From positions 366 to 64,365 of the forward strand of contig DAIDMV010000002.1 of NCBI GenBank assembly GCA_027448765.1: a DNA stretch of 64,000 bases, written 5' to 3'. Below the pieces are notes generated by a model that made no database searches, had not been told where the DNA came from, and worked only from the letters and a program-made list of their open reading frames with translations. The stretch comes from a bacterium. GTDB taxonomy: Bacteria; Patescibacteriota; Saccharimonadia; Saccharimonadales; UBA4665. Both the position numbers and the translations under genes were made by a program. This document shows positions 143 through 63,758 of the stretch, one piece after another (within the stretch, counting starts at the first letter, position 1; the number at the start of each line of letters is the position of its first letter).

Positions 143-511
143 GTGATGCATAAAGTTGCAGTAATTGAAGACAACCTTAATATCCAAAATATCTATAAGT
201 TTAAATTGGAATTGGGGGGTTATTTGGTTAAAGTGGCCAATAATGGTCTTGAAGCTTTGAGTCTAATAGAAGATTTCAAACCTGAATTAATTCTATTGGA
301 TTTAAAGATGCCAATAATGGGTGGAGCCGAATTATTATCAAAGTTATATGAACTTCATGAAGAGTTGCCTTTTAAGGTTTTTATTCTGACCAATATCAGT
401 TTTGATGAAGTCCCTACTTCGATTAAATTTTTAAAATACGATAAATATTTAGTCAAAGCTCACTTAACACCTTCTCAGTTATTACAAATGGTTGACGATG
501 TTTTTAAGTAA
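143..511 (+). CDS. Single-domain response regulator (CheY-like receiver, no output domain)
   Basis: 122 aa. Receiver landmarks are VAVIEDN (acidic pocket), LILLDLKMP (phospho-acceptor Asp), FILTN and YLVKA (conserved Lys). No output domain. ATG at 146 is a likelier start than GTG 143. Confidence 0.85.
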   Translation: MMHKVAVIEDNLNIQNIYKFKLELGGYLVKVANNGLEALSLIEDFKPELILLDLKMPIMGGAELLSKLYELHEELPFKVFILTNISFDEVPTSIKFLKYDKYLVKAHLTPSQLLQMVDDVFK

Positions 512-541
512 AAACTTAATTTATCGTTTTATAATTACTAT

Positions 542-1051
542 ATGAGTACTAAAAAAGATAATCTAATCATAAGAATTTCTTCATTGTTATTATTTGGTAT
601 AGCTTTTGGATATGTTGAAGCGGCAGTTGTTTTTTATTTAAGAAAAATTATTCATTTTCATAGTAATTACGATTTAACAAAGTACCACGTTATTTTAAAT
701 TTAAAATTTATCACCTTTGTTGATCCGATTCAAGCTTTATTAATTAATTCAAAAATCAATGAGGTTGAAGTGGTGAGAGAAGCTGCTACTATAGTCATGC
801 TTTTTTGTTTAGCCGTTTTAGTTGGTAAAAATAAATTACAGAAATTAGCGGTTTTTATGATTGGTTTTGCGACCTGGGATTTAGCTTATTATTTATTTTT
901 AAAAATTTTAGATAATTGGCCTAGGAGTTTATTCACTAAAGATGTTTTCTTTTTAATACCAGTTACTTGGATTGGACCGATTCTAACACCACTGATTATA
1001 TCAAGTTTAATTTTGATAGGTGGTATATTTTTGTATGTTAAACAGGATTAG
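542..1051 (+). CDS. Integral membrane protein, unknown function
   Basis: 169 aa with about five hydrophobic helices. No family recognised from sequence alone. The 3' end overlaps the convergent CHAP gene by 14 nt. Confidence 0.6.
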   Translation: MSTKKDNLIIRISSLLLFGIAFGYVEAAVVFYLRKIIHFHSNYDLTKYHVILNLKFITFVDPIQALLINSKINEVEVVREAATIVMLFCLAVLVGKNKLQKLAVFMIGFATWDLAYYLFLKILDNWPRSLFTKDVFFLIPVTWIGPILTPLIISSLILIGGIFLYVKQD

Positions 1052-1580
1052 GTAATGTTTTTTTATAAACTATATTTGGTGGATTATGAATAAAATTGAA
1101 ATATTTTGCTTGCTTGATTGTTAGAGTTTTTTGATCAACCACGTCTAAGCCATAAACATTCATTTCGCTAATCGTCCAATTGTCATTAATTGGATTGACT
1201 TTGATTACAAAAGCAACATGACCTAAAGGAGGTTGAGTTGTTTGCATAATAGAATCAACGCTTGGTGTATGGTTGATAATATAACCATCTTGAGCCGCTC
1301 GTTTAGCCCAAGTATTAGCGTTACCCCAGGTGTTTGGTATTGGTTGACCAATTTGTTGTCTTAATAAATAAACCCAGTAGGTACAGTTACCCCAAGCGTA
1401 ATGGTCCGACGGATCAATCGGACCAGTATAAAGTTGATGATTTAAGCTGATGTTATTATTGCCTATTAAAGCGGAAACAGAAATAATTGGTAGTAATAAT
1501 ATTAAGCTTAGTATTGAAATGGTAATAATTAATTCATATTTTAATTTAGCTGGTGTGAGTTGTCTTTTTAAAAAAATCAT
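1038..1580 (-). CDS. Membrane-anchored CHAP-domain peptidoglycan hydrolase (T4SS-associated)
   Basis: 180 aa with an N-terminal TM anchor. CHAP catalytic Cys context is WGNCTYWVY and His context is LGHVAFVI. It is the last gene of the T4SS-like operon, with a 4-nt overlap with the VirB4 ORF. Confidence 0.8.
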   Translation of the reverse strand: MIFLKRQLTPAKLKYELIITISILSLILLLPIISVSALIGNNNISLNHQLYTGPIDPSDHYAWGNCTYWVYLLRQQIGQPIPNTWGNANTWAKRAAQDGYIINHTPSVDSIMQTTQPPLGHVAFVIKVNPINDNWTISEMNVYGLDVVDQKTLTIKQAKYFNFIHNPPNIVYKKTLPNPV

Positions 1581-3289
1581 GATTGATAAATTTCATTAGG
1601 ATTGGTAGTAATAATTGGGTGTTCATGTTTACTGGCTGTGATTTTTACTGCTACATGGTAGGTATCAGCAATAATTAAAGCTTCTCCCTGGTCAGATGTT
1701 AAAAGAAAGTTTTCTTCAAATTCACTGAGATTAAATTCTTGAACAACATTTTTAATTGTCGTTGAGTCTTGTCTCATTAATATTCTTAAACTACTTTGAG
1801 AAGCAATAACTTTTCCATATTCGTTATTAAGAAAATCATTAGCTTGTTGAGAAATAATAGATACTCCTAGATAATATTTTCGTGACCGTCTAGTTAACCC
1901 GGCGATAAATTTAGCACTTTCTTCGTGTTGCATTAATAGCCACCCTTCGTCGATGATTAATAATCTTTTTTTGGGATTTAATTTAACTTGATAATTTACA
2001 AAATTAGAAATAATCATGATCACTAATTGTCTTAAATTATCAGCAATATCCTTAATATCAAAGATAATTAAATTATTAGCCAGATCAATATTAGTTTGAA
2101 AATTAAATATTTCTTTTAAACTACCAGATATAAATTTTTCCAGACGGTTAGCCAAATTCTGGCTACCTAATTCTTTAACTTCATCATATAGATTTTGTAG
2201 AATTGGGGTCTCTTCTTTAAATTTTTCATAAATGTTGATGATAGCTTTATCTAGAATTGATTTATCTTCTGAATTTAAACCATCAACCATCAACGATATA
2301 ATTGAGATAATATTTTGGATATGATCAGACAATGATTCTTTTGTTTGGTGACTTAGTTCAAGGTCAAATAAATTAATTTTTTGTTTTGAGTTTGTTGATA
2401 ATTGAATATATGTGCCGTCAAATTCTTCGGATAATTTTTTATATTCTTGTTCTGGATCAATGATAATAACTTGAACATCTTTAATTAATTGCCTCATTAT
2501 TTCTATTTTCATCGCATAGCTTTTACCAGATCCTGATTGAGCAAAAATAATTGAGTTAGCATTATTTAAATTAAAGCGATCAATAATCACCAAAGAGTTA
2601 TTGTTTTTATTAACACCATATAAAATACCGTTTTCTTGAACCAATTCACTGCTAATAAACGGAAAAGTTAGTGATAAAGCCGTACTGTCTAAGTTTCTTT
2701 TTTGATTGATTAGATCTTTGGCTTTGGGCAGAGTCGATTCATAGGCATCTAATTGTTGGTAGGTAGCATTTTTTGTATAAAAAAGATGACTGGCTAGAAT
2801 AGTTTCAATATTTTTTGTTTTTTCTTCCAAGTCGTTTAAATTGTTAGCTTTAATAGTAATATAGATACCAATTTGGAATAATTTTTCTTGACCTCGCATA
2901 ATTTTATCCCTTAACGATATAGCTGATTGGAGAGGATCAGCTATATCTGGACCAATTAGCTTACCGTTTTTGCGCATTAATCTTTTGGTTGACTCTAGTT
3001 CGGTGATTTTTCTTTGTAGTTTGGGCAAAGCGTCGATACTATTAATTAAATCAATATGATAGCTTAAGTCTATATCGTGGTTGTAATTAATTAGATTATT
3101 TAACCACCCGGTTGAGGCTACATAGGGATAACCTGAAATAAAAATTGTTTTTAAAAGTTGATTATTAATATTTAAGTGATGAGTGTTTTCTTCTAGTCCA
3201 GAGTAACTAATTAAGTCTAGATGATCTTGTTGACCTAATAAAAAATTATTATTTTTAGGATGATTATTTTTTAGTTTAATTTTAATCAT
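1577..3289 (-). CDS. virB4: VirB4/TraE-family type IV secretion ATPase (ATPase part)
   Basis: 570 aa. Walker A is AQSGSGKSY and Walker B is LLIIDEGW. The GYPYVASTGWLNNL...DLSYHI block is typical of Gram-positive-type VirB4. It has 4-nt overlaps with both neighbours. Confidence 0.85.
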   Translation of the reverse strand: MIKIKLKNNHPKNNNFLLGQQDHLDLISYSGLEENTHHLNINNQLLKTIFISGYPYVASTGWLNNLINYNHDIDLSYHIDLINSIDALPKLQRKITELESTKRLMRKNGKLIGPDIADPLQSAISLRDKIMRGQEKLFQIGIYITIKANNLNDLEEKTKNIETILASHLFYTKNATYQQLDAYESTLPKAKDLINQKRNLDSTALSLTFPFISSELVQENGILYGVNKNNNSLVIIDRFNLNNANSIIFAQSGSGKSYAMKIEIMRQLIKDVQVIIIDPEQEYKKLSEEFDGTYIQLSTNSKQKINLFDLELSHQTKESLSDHIQNIISIISLMVDGLNSEDKSILDKAIINIYEKFKEETPILQNLYDEVKELGSQNLANRLEKFISGSLKEIFNFQTNIDLANNLIIFDIKDIADNLRQLVIMIISNFVNYQVKLNPKKRLLIIDEGWLLMQHEESAKFIAGLTRRSRKYYLGVSIISQQANDFLNNEYGKVIASQSSLRILMRQDSTTIKNVVQEFNLSEFEENFLLTSDQGEALIIADTYHVAVKITASKHEHPIITTNPNEIYQS

Positions 3290-3900
3290 ATTATCCCCTT
3301 TTTCAAGTTCTTAATTAATTCTTGATTGATTGGTTGAATTTTATAAATATCGGGATTATAAATTTCATAAAATAAATTAAAGATATCTAAACTGGTTAAT
3401 CGTTTAGTCGATAGTTTTAATTTGGTTAAGTTTTTTTGAATGATATCGCAGTTAATGTTTAATTTATCCTTAGCTTCGATATAGTTATTATTGAAATCGT
3501 CAAGAGGTATAATTAGATAAAATAATCTAGTTAAAATTTTGTTTTTGTGACTTAGATTATTAACAAAGTCGATATAATTATTAATTTGATTTTTGTACTT
3601 AATATAATTAGCTTTATTTTTTAACGACGCTCTAAAATTTGATGTGTAAGTTTTAAGATCTAATTCCCTAACCTGAATATAAATTTGGATTCGTGAAGGT
3701 AGTGCGTTTAAAAAATTTTGATAAATTTCGGTTATTATATCTTTTTCTGATTCACTTTTTAATTCAAAATTAATAGTTGATATTTGAATAATTGCTCGGT
3801 AACGGTGGTCGGAAAGATGAAGTAAATCATCTTCAATACTAACAATGTCTAGCTGTTGTTTTGACGAAGCTTTAGTATTATTTTTTAAAAAATCTAACAT
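3286..3900 (-). CDS. VirB4 N-terminal-domain-like protein (separate ORF upstream of the ATPase)
   Basis: 204 aa. IVSIEDDLLHLSDHRYRAIIQISTINFELKSESEKDII..YQNFLNAL resembles, from memory of the family, the extreme N-terminus of full-length Gram-positive VirB4 proteins. ATGA overlap with the ATPase ORF. 204+570 aa is about the full-length VirB4 size. Confidence 0.5.
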   Translation of the reverse strand: MLDFLKNNTKASSKQQLDIVSIEDDLLHLSDHRYRAIIQISTINFELKSESEKDIITEIYQNFLNALPSRIQIYIQVRELDLKTYTSNFRASLKNKANYIKYKNQINNYIDFVNNLSHKNKILTRLFYLIIPLDDFNNNYIEAKDKLNINCDIIQKNLTKLKLSTKRLTSLDIFNLFYEIYNPDIYKIQPINQELIKNLKKGII

Positions 3901-4372
3901 AAATTTTTCCTTGTTTAGTGATTTTAAAACTAAAATTAGAACTTTTTTGATCAGTTAAATTATCAATAGAAATTGTCTGAAATTTATTTATCTTTGGTTG
4001 ATTGATTTTATGATGATTATTTTTTTTAGGTTTTTTGAAATCTTGGAGATTATAATTTGATGATAGTTGCTTGAATTGATTTTTATTAAAAACGTAGTAT
4101 CTTGGCCTTAAAAGATAAAGTATGATTACGATGAGCCAATTTAAGATAAGCTTATTGTTAAGTCTAATTGCTAGTGCACTGATTGAACTGATTAACAAAA
4201 CCATCAGTATTATTTTATAAACATCAATACTGTTAAATGGAGGAAAAATTAAATAAATGATAAATGATAGGATCAATGGAATTATTAATATAATTAATTG
4301 ATTAAGACTTAAATTATGAGTGATGTGATCCTCTATATTAATTACTTGGGAGGGAATATTAGTAGTTTTCAT
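3878..4372 (-). CDS. PrgI/VirB3-like small membrane protein (assigned by context)
   Basis: 164 aa with two adjacent TM helices near the N-terminus and then a basic, Asn-rich tail. It lies between the VirB6-like and VirB4 genes, as PrgI/VirB3-type components do. Confidence 0.45.
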   Translation of the reverse strand: MKTTNIPSQVINIEDHITHNLSLNQLIILIIPLILSFIIYLIFPPFNSIDVYKIILMVLLISSISALAIRLNNKLILNWLIVIILYLLRPRYYVFNKNQFKQLSSNYNLQDFKKPKKNNHHKINQPKINKFQTISIDNLTDQKSSNFSFKITKQGKIYVRFFKK

Positions 4373-4374
4373 AG

Positions 4375-5556
4375 TTATTTCACAATATTAATGACATAAT
4401 TAGATAATTTTCTGATCGCTTTTGGCGTAACTGAAACGAAATCAAGTTCCATTAACATTTTTTGAGTTTTTAGAAGTGTAATCAGTGTTGCTATTCCAAC
4501 AATTGAGGGCATTAACGGATTAAAATTTTTGGTGTTGTTATCAATTAAACTGCTTAAAATAATCGAAGCTAAAAGTAAAATAATGACATGAACAAATAAA
4601 ACAAAAATTGTTGAAAAGTAAGTTTTAACGCTGATTGTAACGAAATCTCTAAAACTGGGTAGTAAACTTAATAGAAAAATTAAAGGTGAGAGAATGGCGC
4701 CTAAATAGAGCACTACTAAACGCATAATATAATAAACTAATAAGATGACGCATAAGATAACAAAAATTAGTAAAATTAACATACTGACTAAACTTAATCC
4801 ATTACTAGACTTAGCTACTTGATTTAGAATATTCCAAACAGTTAATTTGGGAAAACTATTGTAAAGAGCTTGAACCATATAGTTTGATAGGTTGATTATT
4901 AAATCTATGATAAAAATTGAAGAGTTCATTAAGATAAAGGTAAAAATTATGACTGGGGCCATGTTTTTTAAAGAGATGTCCTCAAGTCCTAGACTTGAAC
5001 TGGTAATGATGTGTAAACCTAAAAGTGTAATCATTAAGATCATCAAGCTGTCGGCAATCCCAACTATGACTAACCAAATTTTTAAAACACTTTGGTTGCT
5101 AGCCATTAATGGTGTTGAGTGGGTAAAGTATATTAGTGCCTGAATAAATGGTTGAGCAATAGAAAAAACTATATTTTTTAATAGACCGATAATACTGTCG
5201 ATTATAATAGTAACAATTCCGTTTTTTGTTGGCTGAACCTTAAGACTCCTAATTGCTGGTACGCTGGCTGTTGTGACATGGCTAGAAAGATTGTAATTCT
5301 GCCACAAAAAATGAACTAAAAAAGCTGAGGCGATAACGATAATAAGCCCAATAATTGATTTTTTAATAATAATTTTAGCATGAAGAAGTTTTTCTGGATT
5401 ACCGGCACTGGTCATATATTCAAAACCAGCTTGAATTAGGAAGAAAGTTGTTAAGAGACCGGCCAAAACACTTAAACCTAAGATAATTGGTTGAATTTGA
5501 TTAATTAAATTCTGATTTAGATTAACTAAATTAAATATTTCAAAAAAATTATTCAT
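4375..5556 (-). CDS. VirB6/TrbL-like polytopic membrane protein with N-terminal pilin-like module
   Basis: 393 aa with many TM segments. Position and topology match VirB6/TrbL. N-terminal residues repeat the pilin-like motif of the upstream gene (GFEYMTSAGNPEKLLHAK versus GFIYITSTGNPTKLEKAK). Confidence 0.6.
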   Translation of the reverse strand: MNNFFEIFNLVNLNQNLINQIQPIILGLSVLAGLLTTFFLIQAGFEYMTSAGNPEKLLHAKIIIKKSIIGLIIVIASAFLVHFLWQNYNLSSHVTTASVPAIRSLKVQPTKNGIVTIIIDSIIGLLKNIVFSIAQPFIQALIYFTHSTPLMASNQSVLKIWLVIVGIADSLMILMITLLGLHIITSSSLGLEDISLKNMAPVIIFTFILMNSSIFIIDLIINLSNYMVQALYNSFPKLTVWNILNQVAKSSNGLSLVSMLILLIFVILCVILLVYYIMRLVVLYLGAILSPLIFLLSLLPSFRDFVTISVKTYFSTIFVLFVHVIILLLASIILSSLIDNNTKNFNPLMPSIVGIATLITLLKTQKMLMELDFVSVTPKAIRKLSNYVINIVK

Positions 5557-5558
5557 CT

Positions 5559-5903
5559 TTATCCCCCAAAGGCGCTGGTGGCTAACTGAGTAACAATATT
5601 AGATAAAACGAAAGCCGCTATCGTAATTGCTAAACCTAGACTAGAAAACAGTAATGTTTTTTTAGCTTTTTCTAGTTTTGTTGGATTACCGGTACTAGTG
5701 ATATAAATAAACCCCCCTATAACAAAAAAGCCGGTCGCTACAAGACCGGCTAAACCTGCTATTGCTTGGATAATTGTTTTTAAAAAATTATCCACTGACC
5801 CCAGGCCAACTGGCGAGGCCGCTAGAGCTTGATTGGGGATAATAATCTCGAGAAAAAGAACGCTAAAGAAGAGCTTTATTTTAAGTTTGTTTAAGTTTTT
5901 CAT
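5559..5903 (-). CDS. T4SS pilin-like protein (VirB2/TrbC-like architecture)
   Basis: 114 aa. A signal peptide ends at QALA-AS, and two hydrophobic helices flank the short loop TSTGNPTKLEKAKK. It is the first gene of the cluster. AAGGAG lies upstream of the ATG. Confidence 0.6.
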   Translation of the reverse strand: MKNLNKLKIKLFFSVLFLEIIIPNQALAASPVGLGSVDNFLKTIIQAIAGLAGLVATGFFVIGGFIYITSTGNPTKLEKAKKTLLFSSLGLAITIAAFVLSNIVTQLATSAFGG

Positions 5904-6076
5904 CTTAATACTCCTTTAATTGACAGGAGTATCACACAATATTTATATAAATGCAATAATATTTTAAAACATAAGAAATTTAAATTTAAATTTATATGAT
6001 TATGAAACGTTGACTATTTTACAAAAAGCTGGGTTTTTTCTATTTAATGATAAAATTATTATAATCTATTGTGATT

Positions 6077-30182: not shown

Positions 30183-30437
30183 AATACCCCTTCTCCTTGA
30201 TTAATTAATAAACTCCACCTCCAACTCTATTACTAGAGTTTAATAAGCGCTTATACTGATATTTATTTAATACCTATATTTACAAAAATGCAATAATGTT
30301 TTAAAACATTAGCGTTTTATTTCTGTAATTTTTATCTGTTAGTCCGTTGTATATAAAACTTTTACTGATGTCTAGCTGATTTTTTTTGTAATAAATTTTT
30401 ATTTAGGTCTAATTATTTGTATAATTAAAAATTAGTT

Positions 30438-63465: not shown

Positions 63466-63758
63466 TTTATGCCTCCTAGCAAATTATTAGTTTTGATAAC
63501 ATTTTGAGCAGTAATTTTTGCGAAATTAGTATATTCAACAGATATAAATTCTTGTTCATAAGTAATCCGGCTGAAAAGTTTGCTTATTATTAGCCGTAGG
63601 CTATGAAATCAACACAATAAATAGTACAATACAGTAGTCATATTAGATATAATTTAGATCTGCTGAATGTCAATTTTGAATTTTGGCAAAGAACTATATT
63701 TACAACTTCTAGAAACACCCTGCAATAGTGATAATTTTTAATACATACAGGAGCAGCA

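What the first reader, a model, noticed from the sequence alone, without database searches (positions are those of the whole stretch)
1038..5903. Minimal six-ORF Gram-positive-type type IV secretion-like operon without relaxase, coupling protein or VirB8-like gene in view
- **Layout.** Six co-directional ORFs have gaps or overlaps of -23 to +2 nt.
- **Components.** They encode a pilin-like protein, a VirB6-like protein, a PrgI/VirB3-like protein, a two-part VirB4 and a CHAP hydrolase.
- **What is missing.** No VirD4-type coupling ATPase, relaxase, oriT-like repeat or VirB8/TcpC-like gene lies in or next to the cluster inside this window. The left flank is only 1 kb.
- **Interpretation.** A relaxase-less minimal T4SS in a putative epibiont suggests DNA uptake or protein/effector delivery at the host interface rather than classical conjugation. 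That interpretation is inference.
Basis: partly seen in the sequence, partly recalled or inferred. Interest (0 to 1): 0.6.

Follow-up and report, generated by a model that had tools for sequence, protein, structure and literature searches.

The report
Accessory type IV secretion operon
This is an intact six-gene core of a Gram-positive-style type IV secretion machine in a tiny Saccharibacteria-like bacterium; it is a second, accessory copy, and in related genomes the same module sits in mobile islands that carry the coupling, candidate DNA-nicking and integration genes missing here.

Summary
Six minus-strand ORFs (1038-5903; spacings +2, +2, -23, -4, -4) encode a VirB2-like pilin, a pilin-domain/VirB6-like protein, PrgI/VirB3, a TrsD-like VirB4 N-domain, VirB4 and a CHAP hydrolase.

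This kind of relaxase-less Patescibacteria T4SS is already published (PMC12102498, PMC10633639).

New context:
- **Second system.** The genome holds two T4SS clusters. The lineage-wide one lies beside dnaA on another contig. The window's cluster is a deeply diverged paralogue (VirB4 37% identical) found in about 12 of 41 relatives.
- **Mobile-island setting.** In other genera the module is followed by a VirD4-type coupling protein. Islands of roughly 10-30 kb also carry a Replic_Relax (MOB_C-like) relaxase candidate and a large serine recombinase abutting a tRNA gene.
- **Same-genus site.** The cluster occupies the 3' side of tRNA-Glu(CUC), and two species show a clean empty site.
- **This genome.** The coupling-protein orthologue lies on other contigs. 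The relaxase candidate survives only as stubs, and no intact recombinase was found.
- **Selection.** All six genes are under purifying selection (dN/dS 0.04-0.13).

Best reading: this is the retained transfer-channel core of a conjugative island. Interest is moderate.

The parts
5559..5903 (-). VirB2/TrbC-like T4SS pilin (114 aa): signal peptide plus two hydrophobic helices
   Evidence: PF18895 E 2.6e-10. NF045849 (Mbov_0395 pilin-like) 40.9 bits, cut-off 40. Hydrophobic segments. dN/dS 0.04 against G005.
4375..5556 (-). Polytopic membrane protein (393 aa) with an N-terminal pilin-like domain and a VirB6/TrbL-like body
   Evidence: PF18895 at residues 15-84 (35.7 bits). Weak TrbL_4 (E 0.83) and CD3337/EF1877 (E 0.004) hits. 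Homologues at 44-98% identity carry precomputed PF18895 + PF19590 TrbL_3, some PF04610. The local hmmscan did not reproduce TrbL_3. About 7 hydrophobic helices.
3878..4372 (-). PrgI/VirB3-like small membrane protein (164 aa)
   Evidence: PF12666 E 4.5e-5, 24.4 bits, below the cut-off of 27. Orthologues are listed as PF12666. Same position in every related locus.
3286..3900 (-). TrsD-like protein: the VirB4 N-terminal domain as a separate polypeptide (204 aa)
   Evidence: NF045971 positions 11-171 (E 1.3e-8). NF041427 TrsD E 0.004. The orthologue in L014 hits TrsD at E 7e-11. The split is conserved in all related loci and in a Pontibacillus megaplasmid.
1577..3289 (-). VirB4 ATPase (570 aa; linker plus P-loop domain)
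   Evidence: NF045971 348 bits, above the cut-off of 325, positions 189-733. PDB 4AG5 VirB4 E 2e-31. Walker A and B intact. dN/dS 0.05.
1038..1580 (-). Membrane-anchored CHAP peptidoglycan hydrolase (180 aa), the VirB1-type wall-opening enzyme
   Evidence: PF05257 E 4.5e-16. One N-terminal hydrophobic helix. An M23 peptidase takes the same slot in many relatives.
5904..6070 (.). Intergenic region upstream of the pilin gene; likely promoter region of the operon
   Evidence: It is the only non-coding gap longer than 2 nt in the cluster. Promoter-like hexamers at 5990-5956 on the minus strand are no more frequent than in shuffled sequence, so this assignment is an inference.

Best explanation
**What it is.** The six ORFs form one translationally coupled operon for the membrane and pilus core of a monoderm-type T4SS.
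- The pilin is exported by Sec.
- The VirB6-like protein forms the membrane channel.
- PrgI/VirB3 and the free TrsD N-domain dock the VirB4 ATPase, which powers assembly.
- The anchored CHAP hydrolase opens the cell wall.
- These roles are inferred from homology.

**Where it sits in the genome.** It is the second, accessory T4SS of a Saccharimonadia-like genome. The lineage-wide, origin-proximal T4SS lies on another contig.

**What the module belongs to.** In relatives it is the transfer-channel part of tRNA-integrated islands. These also encode a VirD4-type coupling protein, a Replic_Relax (MOB_C-like) relaxase candidate and a large serine recombinase, which together make an integrative conjugative element.

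**State in this genome.**
- Only the channel core remains at the genus's tRNA-Glu-side locus.
- The coupling-protein orthologue is encoded elsewhere.
- The relaxase candidate is reduced to stubs.
- No intact recombinase was found.

**Likely working (inferred).** The core is still selected. It probably works with an unlinked coupling protein to pass DNA or protein to contacted cells, but it can no longer move itself.
For: **Shown**
- *Components.* Domain content and intact ATPase motifs.
- *Two systems.*
  - A second cluster lies at C16:138-7935 next to recF-dnaN-dnaA. Its VirB4 is 37% identical to the window's.
  - A six-gene pilin array lies at the end of C8.
  - The two VirB4 types are each monophyletic at 100% support and deeply split.
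- *Distribution.* The long type is in nearly all of 40 relatives. The window's type is in about 12 of the 41 genomes searched, own genome included.
- *Coupling protein.*
  - An 830-910-aa protein directly follows the hydrolase in G008, G016, G017, G028, G031, G032, G039 and three public contigs.
  - It scores PF02534 36 bits, PF10412 30 bits and PF12696 26 bits, all above their cut-offs.
  - Its co-occurrence with the short-type VirB4 gives p = 3e-5.
- *Relaxase candidate.*
  - A Replic_Relax-like family of about 270 aa lies 2-20 kb downstream of the coupling gene, convergent with it, in seven genomes.
  - hhalign against clear Replic_Relax proteins gives E 6e-5 over 217 columns.
- *Recombinase and tRNA.*
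  - A large serine recombinase sits beside the relaxase candidate in six genomes.
  - Its 3' end abuts or overlaps a tRNA gene in each of those six.
- *Same-genus site.*
  - G001 and G002 have a clean empty site: the CDP-OH operon, then 13 nt in G001, then the 3' end of tRNA-Glu(CUC).
  - G007 carries the cluster inserted there.
- *Portable block.* The 7.7-kb module is 85% identical between two contigs whose flanks are unrelated.
- *Own genome.*
  - Coupling-protein orthologue fragments lie on C41 and C14.
  - Relaxase-candidate stubs lie on C3 and C24.
  - IS elements sit at the contig breaks.
- *Selection.* dN/dS is 0.04-0.13 for all six genes, and dS matches the genome baseline.

**Inferred**
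- The subunit roles.
- Co-operation with an unlinked coupling protein.
- Past self-mobility.
Against: - *No transfer evidence.* There is no experimental or read-level evidence of excision or transfer.
- *Weak relaxase assignment.* The relaxase candidate scores only near the Pfam cut-off (24-28 bits, cut-off 25.3). Profile-profile probability is 65% on shallow alignments.
- *No att repeats.* No att-type repeats were found at the G007 island borders.
- *Stand-alone cores.* In 16 more distant public loci the six-gene core often stands alone within +/-10 kb. A coupling protein plus relaxase candidate lies nearby in only 3, and a recombinase in 2. A stand-alone, non-mobile use could therefore be common.
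- *Vertical descent here.* Within the genus the cluster's divergence matches that of its flanks.
- *Fragmented assembly.* The genome is in 97 contigs and 93% complete. The absence of an intact recombinase or relaxase candidate is not certain.
Confidence: 0.65

Rival explanations
1. This is a dedicated, relaxase-independent minimal T4SS used at the host interface for effector or protein delivery or for DNA uptake, and it is not tied to any mobile element.
For: - No relaxase of four major Pfam families was found in this genome or in nine other carriers.
- The six genes are under strong purifying selection and inherited vertically within the genus.
- The six-gene core stands alone in many distant loci.
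- The literature proposes co-option of Patescibacteria T4SSs for non-conjugative roles (PMC12102498, PMC10633639).
- RHS/PA14 toxin genes lie beside the module in two unrelated contexts.
Against: - The published host-interface case concerns the other, origin-proximal system, which this genome also has.
- The window's type is absent from about 70% of relatives, so it cannot be generally required for epibiosis.
- It is statistically and physically linked to a coupling protein, a MOB_C-like protein, a serine recombinase and tRNA sites in relatives.
- Empty sites exist within the genus.
Confidence: 0.22
2. The element is complete in the real genome. The coupling protein, relaxase candidate and recombinase only look missing or split because repeats (IS copies) broke the assembly.
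For: - The coupling-protein gene runs off the ends of contigs C41 and C14 in frame.
- Contig C2 ends in a multi-copy IS 365 b left of the window.
- A small contig, C36, carries a recombinase C-terminus next to tRNA-Asn, the same arrangement as in G007.
- The genome is 93% complete.
Against: - Two relaxase-candidate copies (C3, C24) are truncated by stop codons inside assembled sequence.
- No C-terminal part of that protein is found anywhere in the assembly.
- C36 has 41% G+C against 32% for the genome, so it may belong to another organism.
- In the better-assembled same-genus genome G007, the coupling protein, relaxase candidate and recombinase lie on a different contig from the six-gene cluster. 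The cluster there sits mid-contig.
Confidence: 0.1
3. The cluster is a non-functional, decaying leftover of a mobile element.
For: - Partner genes have been lost or scattered.
- IS elements lie nearby.
- The short-type VirB4 has diverged faster in this genus (59-70% identity to other genera) than among other genera (73-89%).
Against: - All six frames are open and the catalytic motifs are intact.
- dN/dS is 0.04-0.13 against G005 and 0.14-0.24 against G007.
- Tight translational coupling is preserved.
Confidence: 0.03

Closest known systems
Patescibacteria/Saccharibacteria T4SS (Quinonero-Coronel et al. 2025, PMC12102498; Southlakia epibionticum SEML1_0006-0019, Wang et al. 2023, PMC10633639; TM7x, McLean et al. 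2020, PMC7427843)
   Same: - Monoderm (MPF_FATA-like) parts list: TrsD plus VirB4 as two genes, PrgI/VirB3, VirB6, a VirB2-like pilin and a wall hydrolase.
- No outer-membrane core, and no relaxase or coupling protein in the cluster.
   Different: - The described, essential system is origin-proximal and has a multi-gene pilin array. This genome has that system on C16, with a six-gene pilin array at the end of C8.
- The window's cluster is a separate paralogue (VirB4 37% identical).
- It has one pilin gene, a pilin-VirB6 fusion and a patchy distribution.
- In relatives it has an adjacent coupling protein and island context.
- The papers read here do not describe two co-resident types.
Firmicutes/Mollicutes ICE T4SS of the CD1110 / Mbov_0395-0397 families (NCBIfam NF045971, NF045849, NF045975)
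   Same: - VirB4 passes the CD1110 family cut-off.
- The pilin passes the Mbov_0395 pilin-like cut-off.
- A Pontibacillus megaplasmid shows the same order: pilin-like, large membrane protein, small protein, TrsD-like, VirB4 (35% identical), M23 hydrolase.
   Different: - VirB4 is full-length (about 800 aa) in typical CD1110 elements, but split here.
- Those elements have MOB_P or MOB_T relaxases and VirD4 of the CD1115 family. Here, related islands use a Replic_Relax-like candidate.
Actinobacterial plasmid module PrgI-VirB4-T4CP-Replic_Relax-NlpC/P60 (Embleya plasmid NZ_CP108778)
   Same: It combines VirB4, a VirD4-type coupling protein and a replication-relaxation (MOB_C-type) protein with a wall hydrolase, as in the related Saccharimonadia islands.
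   Different: - No pilin gene is annotated there.
- VirB4 is about 31% identical.
- It is plasmid-borne rather than tRNA-integrated with a serine recombinase.

Membership tests
VirB4-based type IV secretion system, monoderm MPF_FATA-like (CD1110 family) | VirB4 ATPase scoring above a curated VirB4 family cut-off, with intact Walker motifs | tested here: met
   NF045971 348 bits, above 325. 4AG5 VirB4 E 2e-31. AQSGSGKS and LLIIDE motifs present.
VirB4-based type IV secretion system, monoderm MPF_FATA-like (CD1110 family) | VirB3/PrgI-like and VirB6-like membrane subunits encoded beside virB4 | tested here: inconclusive
   PrgI scores 24.4 bits, below the cut-off of 27. VirB6 rests on weak direct hits, precomputed TrbL_3/TrbL hits on homologues and topology. 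The local scan did not reproduce TrbL_3.
VirB4-based type IV secretion system, monoderm MPF_FATA-like (CD1110 family) | Cell-wall hydrolase (VirB1 role) in the cluster | tested here: met
   CHAP E 4.5e-16. An M23 peptidase fills the same slot in relatives.
VirB4-based type IV secretion system, monoderm MPF_FATA-like (CD1110 family) | VirB8/TcpC-like subunit | tested here: not met
   PF12642 gave no match in 10 carrier genomes. All six ORFs are otherwise assigned. A structure-based search was not done.
Patescibacteria-clade T4SS as published (PMC12102498) | Separate TrsD-like gene upstream of virB4, and a VirB2-like pilin gene nearby | tested here: met
Patescibacteria-clade T4SS as published (PMC12102498) | VirB4 falls inside the monophyletic Patescibacteria clade | tested here: inconclusive
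   My tree has only four outgroups on long branches. The short and long types are each monophyletic, but their mutual position is unresolved, and an Embleya plasmid VirB4 joins the long type at 86/82.
Patescibacteria-clade T4SS as published (PMC12102498) | Origin-proximal location (near dnaA/dnaN), typical of several classes and of the essential S. epibionticum system | tested here: not met
   The window's cluster lies beside a lipid head-group operon. The dnaA-adjacent cluster is the other one, on C16.
Integrative conjugative element (ICE) | Integrase or recombinase at an island end | tested here: not met
   This genome has no intact copy. Only a 41-aa remnant in the window and a fragment on contig C36 (41% G+C) were found. 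The feature is met in relatives G007, G010, G016, G017, G028 and G031.
Integrative conjugative element (ICE) | Relaxase | tested here: not met
   PF03432, PF01076 and PF02486 were negative. The Replic_Relax-like candidate is present only as truncated stubs in this genome. Full-length candidates occur in relatives, near the Pfam cut-off.
Integrative conjugative element (ICE) | Type IV coupling protein | tested here: inconclusive
   It is not in the window. The orthologue is split over the ends of contigs C41 and C14, so its intactness is unknown. Two paralogues lie on C10 and C12.
Integrative conjugative element (ICE) | Insertion at a defined site, with empty sites in relatives and att repeats | tested here: inconclusive
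   An empty site at the 3' end of tRNA-Glu(CUC) is seen in G001 and G002, against an occupied site in G007. No repeat of the tRNA end was found at the far border. The tRNA is not in this genome's assembly.
   DUF87 is shared by both families, but the protein passes the VirB4 CD1110 cut-off. It aligns to VirB4 over 545 model positions, and its only PDB relatives are VirB4 and TrwK.

The most novel reading that the evidence does not exclude
Saccharimonadia carry two deeply diverged type IV secretion systems with different roles.
- **System one.** The universal, origin-proximal system is tied to epibiotic growth.
- **System two.** The second is an accessory, pilin-bearing system that is the transfer machine of a family of tRNA-integrated conjugative islands.
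  - These islands carry a VirD4-type coupling protein, a MOB_C-like relaxase and a large serine recombinase, together with defence, toxin and metal-resistance cargo.
  - They would be working conjugative elements in ultra-small CPR bacteria.
- **This window.** It shows the stage after capture. The DNA-processing and integration genes are lost or scattered, and the six-gene channel core is kept by selection for a cellular use.
Probability: 0.4. Interest if true: 0.65.

Novelty: new member of a known kind. Interest (0 to 1): 0.42.

Why it matters
- **Assumption in the field.** Published work treats 'the' Patescibacteria T4SS as one relaxase-less system co-opted for epibiosis.
- **What this changes.** Some Saccharimonadia have two systems, and the accessory one keeps the hallmarks of conjugative islands in relatives. 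This would separate two questions now merged: what the essential system exports, and whether CPR bacteria exchange DNA by conjugation.
- **Practical effect.** It warns against reading every CPR virB4 cluster as the host-interface machine.
- **For this window alone.** The result is mostly clarifying. The cluster is a known kind of operon, and its 'missing' partners are explained.

Tried and rejected
- **Separate history of the cluster in G000 versus G005.** Cluster dS (0.7-1.4) exceeded that of the left flank (0.17-0.28), which at first suggested horizontal replacement. Other loci gave a genome baseline of 0.66-0.91. The left flank is therefore the outlier, and the idea was rejected.
- **C72 as a third VirB4.** It is a 615-b contig of 42% G+C, 88% identical to the long type. 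It is probably another strain or organism.
- **Multi-copy 5' end of the relaxase candidate.** This is an assembly-graph overlap of 127 b plus a two-copy 1.3-kb repeat carrying a truncated stub, not hidden full copies.
- **Promoter and terminator scan.** Uninformative at 30% G+C: 41 promoter-like sites found against 36 expected.
- **att repeat search at the G007 island.** Nothing beyond chance.
- **Structure prediction.** Not run. The key relatives came from genome handles, which that tool may refuse, and homologue annotations sufficed for VirB6.
- **Relaxase families not searched.** MOB_F (PF08751), MOB_H (PF07514) and MOB_Q (PF03389).

Full report
**1. Observation**

The window is C2:366-64365 of a 745-kb assembly in 97 contigs, about 32% G+C.

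Six minus-strand ORFs lie at 5559-5903, 4375-5556, 3878-4372, 3286-3900, 1577-3289 and 1038-1580. Spacings are +2, +2, -23, -4 and -4 nt.

Profile searches confirm every component:
- **Pilin.** T4SS_pilin E 2.6e-10. It also passes the NCBIfam Mbov_0395 pilin-like cut-off.
- **393-aa protein.** A pilin-like domain at residues 15-84, followed by about six hydrophobic helices.
- **PrgI.** E 4.5e-5, just below Pfam's cut-off.
- **204-aa protein.** Matches positions 11-171 of the CD1110 VirB4 model.
- **570-aa protein.** Matches positions 189-733 at 348 bits (cut-off 325).
- **CHAP hydrolase.** E 4.5e-16.

The VirB6 call is the weakest:
- Direct hits are marginal.
- Homologues of 44-98% identity carry precomputed T4SS_pilin + TrbL_3, and sometimes TrbL.
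- A local scan of one such homologue did not reproduce TrbL_3.

The ATPase is VirB4, not FtsK/HerA. Its only solved relatives are VirB4 (4AG5, E 2e-31) and TrwK. Its nearest plasmid homologues are annotated as CD1110-family VirB4.

**2. What is already known**

- A 2025 survey of 3,035 Patescibacteria genomes describes this parts list: TrsD, VirB4, PrgI, VirB6, VirB2-like pilins and hydrolases. It also reports the general lack of relaxases (PMC12102498).
- Tn-seq in Southlakia epibionticum showed that the T4SS genes SEML1_0006-0019 are essential for epibiotic growth (PMC10633639).
- The cluster as such is therefore a known kind.

**3. Two systems in one genome**

- *Second cluster.* A search of the whole assembly found a second cluster on C16. 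It encodes PrgI-like (326 aa), TrsD-like (284 aa), VirB4 (627 aa) and 877-aa and 460-aa proteins, followed by recF, dnaN, dnaA, rnpA and yidC.
- *Pilin array.* A six-gene pilin array sits at the end of C8.
- *Equivalence (inference).* I take this origin-proximal cluster to be the counterpart of the published essential system, from its position and its pilin array.
- *Divergence.* The two VirB4 proteins are 37% identical and the TrsD proteins 27%.
- *Distribution among 40 relatives.*
  - The long type is nearly universal.
  - The window's short type was detected in G005, G007, G008, G016, G017, G031, G032 and G039.
  - Fragments at contig ends add G004, G006 and G028.
- *Tree.* Each type is monophyletic at 100% support, with long stems. 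Their relation to four Firmicute and Actinobacterial outgroups is unresolved.
- *Conservation.* The long type is 74-87% identical across the order. The short type is 73-89% identical among other genera, but only 59-70% identical between this genus and the others.

**4. The short type's partners in relatives**

- *Coupling protein.*
  - In G008, G016, G017, G028, G031, G032, G039 and three public contigs, the hydrolase gene is directly followed by an 830-910-aa protein.
  - Its Walker A and B motifs can be read in the sequences printed.
  - It passes the Pfam cut-offs for T4SS-DNA_transf, TrwB_AAD_bind and TraG-D_C.
  - It gives sub-threshold TraD and VirD4 NCBIfam hits.
  - Orthologues at 42% identity or more co-occur with the short-type VirB4: 9 genomes have both, 3 only VirB4, 2 only the coupling protein and 27 neither (p = 3e-5).
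- *Classical relaxases and TcpC.* PF03432, PF01076, PF02486 and PF12642 were negative in ten carriers. The controls rang.
- *Relaxase candidate.*
  - PF13814 (Replic_Relax) is the family annotated beside VirB4 and a coupling protein on an Embleya plasmid. It hit seven carriers.
  - The hits define a family of about 270 aa. It scores 24-28 bits (cut-off 25.3).
  - Against clear Replic_Relax proteins it aligns over 217 columns at E 6e-5, probability 65%.
  - It lies 2-20 kb downstream of the coupling gene, on the opposite strand, in G007, G010, G016, G017, G028, G031 and G039.
  - It is associated with the coupling-protein orthologue (p = 9e-4).
- *Recombinase and tRNA.*
  - A large serine recombinase (Resolvase + Recombinase + Zn ribbon, XisF/Ccr-like) sits next to the relaxase candidate in G007, G010, G016, G017, G028 and G031.
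  - In all six, its 3' end lies within about 90 nt of, or overlaps, a tRNA gene: Asn, Glu, Gln, Ala, Gln and Glu respectively.
- *Cargo.* Genes between and around these parts include BREX, restriction-modification, a KAP NTPase, DndB, RHS/PA14 toxins and metal-resistance genes.
- *Portable block.* Two public contigs share the 7.7-kb module at 85% DNA identity, with unrelated flanks.
- *Reading.* Together this is the architecture of an integrative conjugative element of roughly 10-30 kb.
- *More distant loci.* In 16 more distant species representatives the six-gene core is invariant but often stands alone within +/-10 kb.

**5. This genus and this genome**

*Integration site.*
- In G001 and G002 the CDP-alcohol transferase operon is adjacent to the 3' end of tRNA-Glu(CUC), followed by a histidine kinase gene. 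The gap is 13 nt in G001.
- In G007 the six genes plus four others, including a Fic gene, are inserted exactly there.
- G003 has a different island at the same site.
- G000, G004, G005 and G006 have the cluster beside the same operon.

*State of the partner genes in G000.*
- The coupling-protein orthologue is split over the ends of C41 (N-terminus) and C14 (C-terminus, 58-60% identical), near an IS3-like element.
- Two more distant paralogues lie on C10 and C12.
- The relaxase candidate exists only as stubs of 44-50 codons on C3 and C24.
- No intact recombinase was found.
- tRNA-Glu(CUC) is not in the assembly.
- C2 ends 365 b left of the window, in a multi-copy DDE-transposase IS.

*G007.* The coupling protein, relaxase candidate and recombinase form a separate block beside tRNA-Asn, on another contig.

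*Selection.*
- All six genes are under purifying selection: dN/dS 0.04-0.13 against G005 and 0.14-0.24 against G007.
- Their dS matches other loci of the genome.

**6. Interpretation**

- *Shown.*
  - The component identities.
  - The presence of two systems.
  - The patchy distribution.
  - The physical links in relatives.
  - The empty sites.
  - The purifying selection.
- *Inferred.*
  - The subunit roles, from VirB and Prg homology.
  - That the islands are or were self-transmissible.
  - That the core here works with an unlinked coupling protein.
It fits the other cluster better.

**7. Earlier notes of this scan**

Notes on other genomes report the same island architecture and a second cluster. 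I reached these points independently before reading them and treat them as agreement, not as support.

**8. Verdict**

- The operon is real, intact and of a known kind.
- The 'missing' partners are explained by its origin as the channel module of a conjugative island and by later rearrangement.
- The useful new element is the distinction between two co-resident T4SS types.
- Interest is moderate.

Noticed in passing
own genome contig C16:138-7935, with C8:34438-37035: A second T4SS cluster encodes PrgI-like, TrsD-like, VirB4 (627 aa) and 877-aa and 460-aa proteins. It lies directly beside recF-dnaN-dnaA-rnpA-yidC. A six-gene VirB2-like pilin array sits at a contig end. This is probably the lineage's essential system.
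   Followed up: partly
contig C2:1-127 (just left of the window) and contigs C31, C26, C65, C19, C10, C1: The window's contig starts inside a multi-copy insertion sequence (DDE transposase on C31). Several contigs share it through 127-b overlaps, and it blocks extension of the left flank.
   Followed up: partly
window 143-1051 against L012 (G005): The response-regulator and 169-aa membrane-protein genes left of the cluster have dS 0.17-0.28 against G005. The cluster and other loci have 0.66-1.4. This suggests a recent recombination tract ending at the CHAP gene.
   Followed up: partly
window about 63474-63596, minus strand: A 41-residue stretch is 51% identical to the C-terminus of the island-type large serine recombinase (tBLASTn E 5e-7). 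It may be a remnant of an old integration at the far end of the window.
   Followed up: no
L009:14893-19812 (G017); L014 and L015:1-6702: Giant RHS/YD-repeat proteins with PA14 domains lie next to the short-type T4SS module in two different arrangements. They could be cargo toxins or secretion substrates.
   Followed up: no
L033 (Pontibacillus sp. megaplasmid NZ_CP062975, 351.8-361.4 kb): A Bacillota replicon has the same gene order, including an annotated Mbov_0395 pilin-like protein, a TrsD-like split and an M23 hydrolase. Pilin-bearing monoderm T4SSs are therefore not confined to Patescibacteria and Mollicutes.
   Followed up: partly
L066 and L070 (contig PLZJ01000002.1, 918 kb): One near-complete genome carries two copies of the short-type six-gene module about 400 kb apart. 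Their VirB4 proteins are 60% and 54% identical to the window's.
   Followed up: no
own genome contigs C27-C97 (many 0.5-1.1 kb, G+C 0.38-0.61), for example C72 and C36: Dozens of very short contigs have much higher G+C than the 32% genome. They include a VirB4 fragment (C72) and a recombinase fragment with tRNA-Asn (C36). They probably come from other organisms in the sample.
   Followed up: partly
L047, L048, L051, L006 (genus g1): The 3' side of tRNA-Glu(CUC) is an island hot spot in this genus. It is empty in two species, holds a Fic-gene island in one, and holds the T4SS (plus Fic) in others.
   Followed up: yes
window 5939-5975 and 30276-30312: A first-reader note reports a 37-nt element upstream of the pilin gene that is repeated upstream of a surface-protein gene. 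It could be a shared regulatory site. I did not test it.
   Followed up: no
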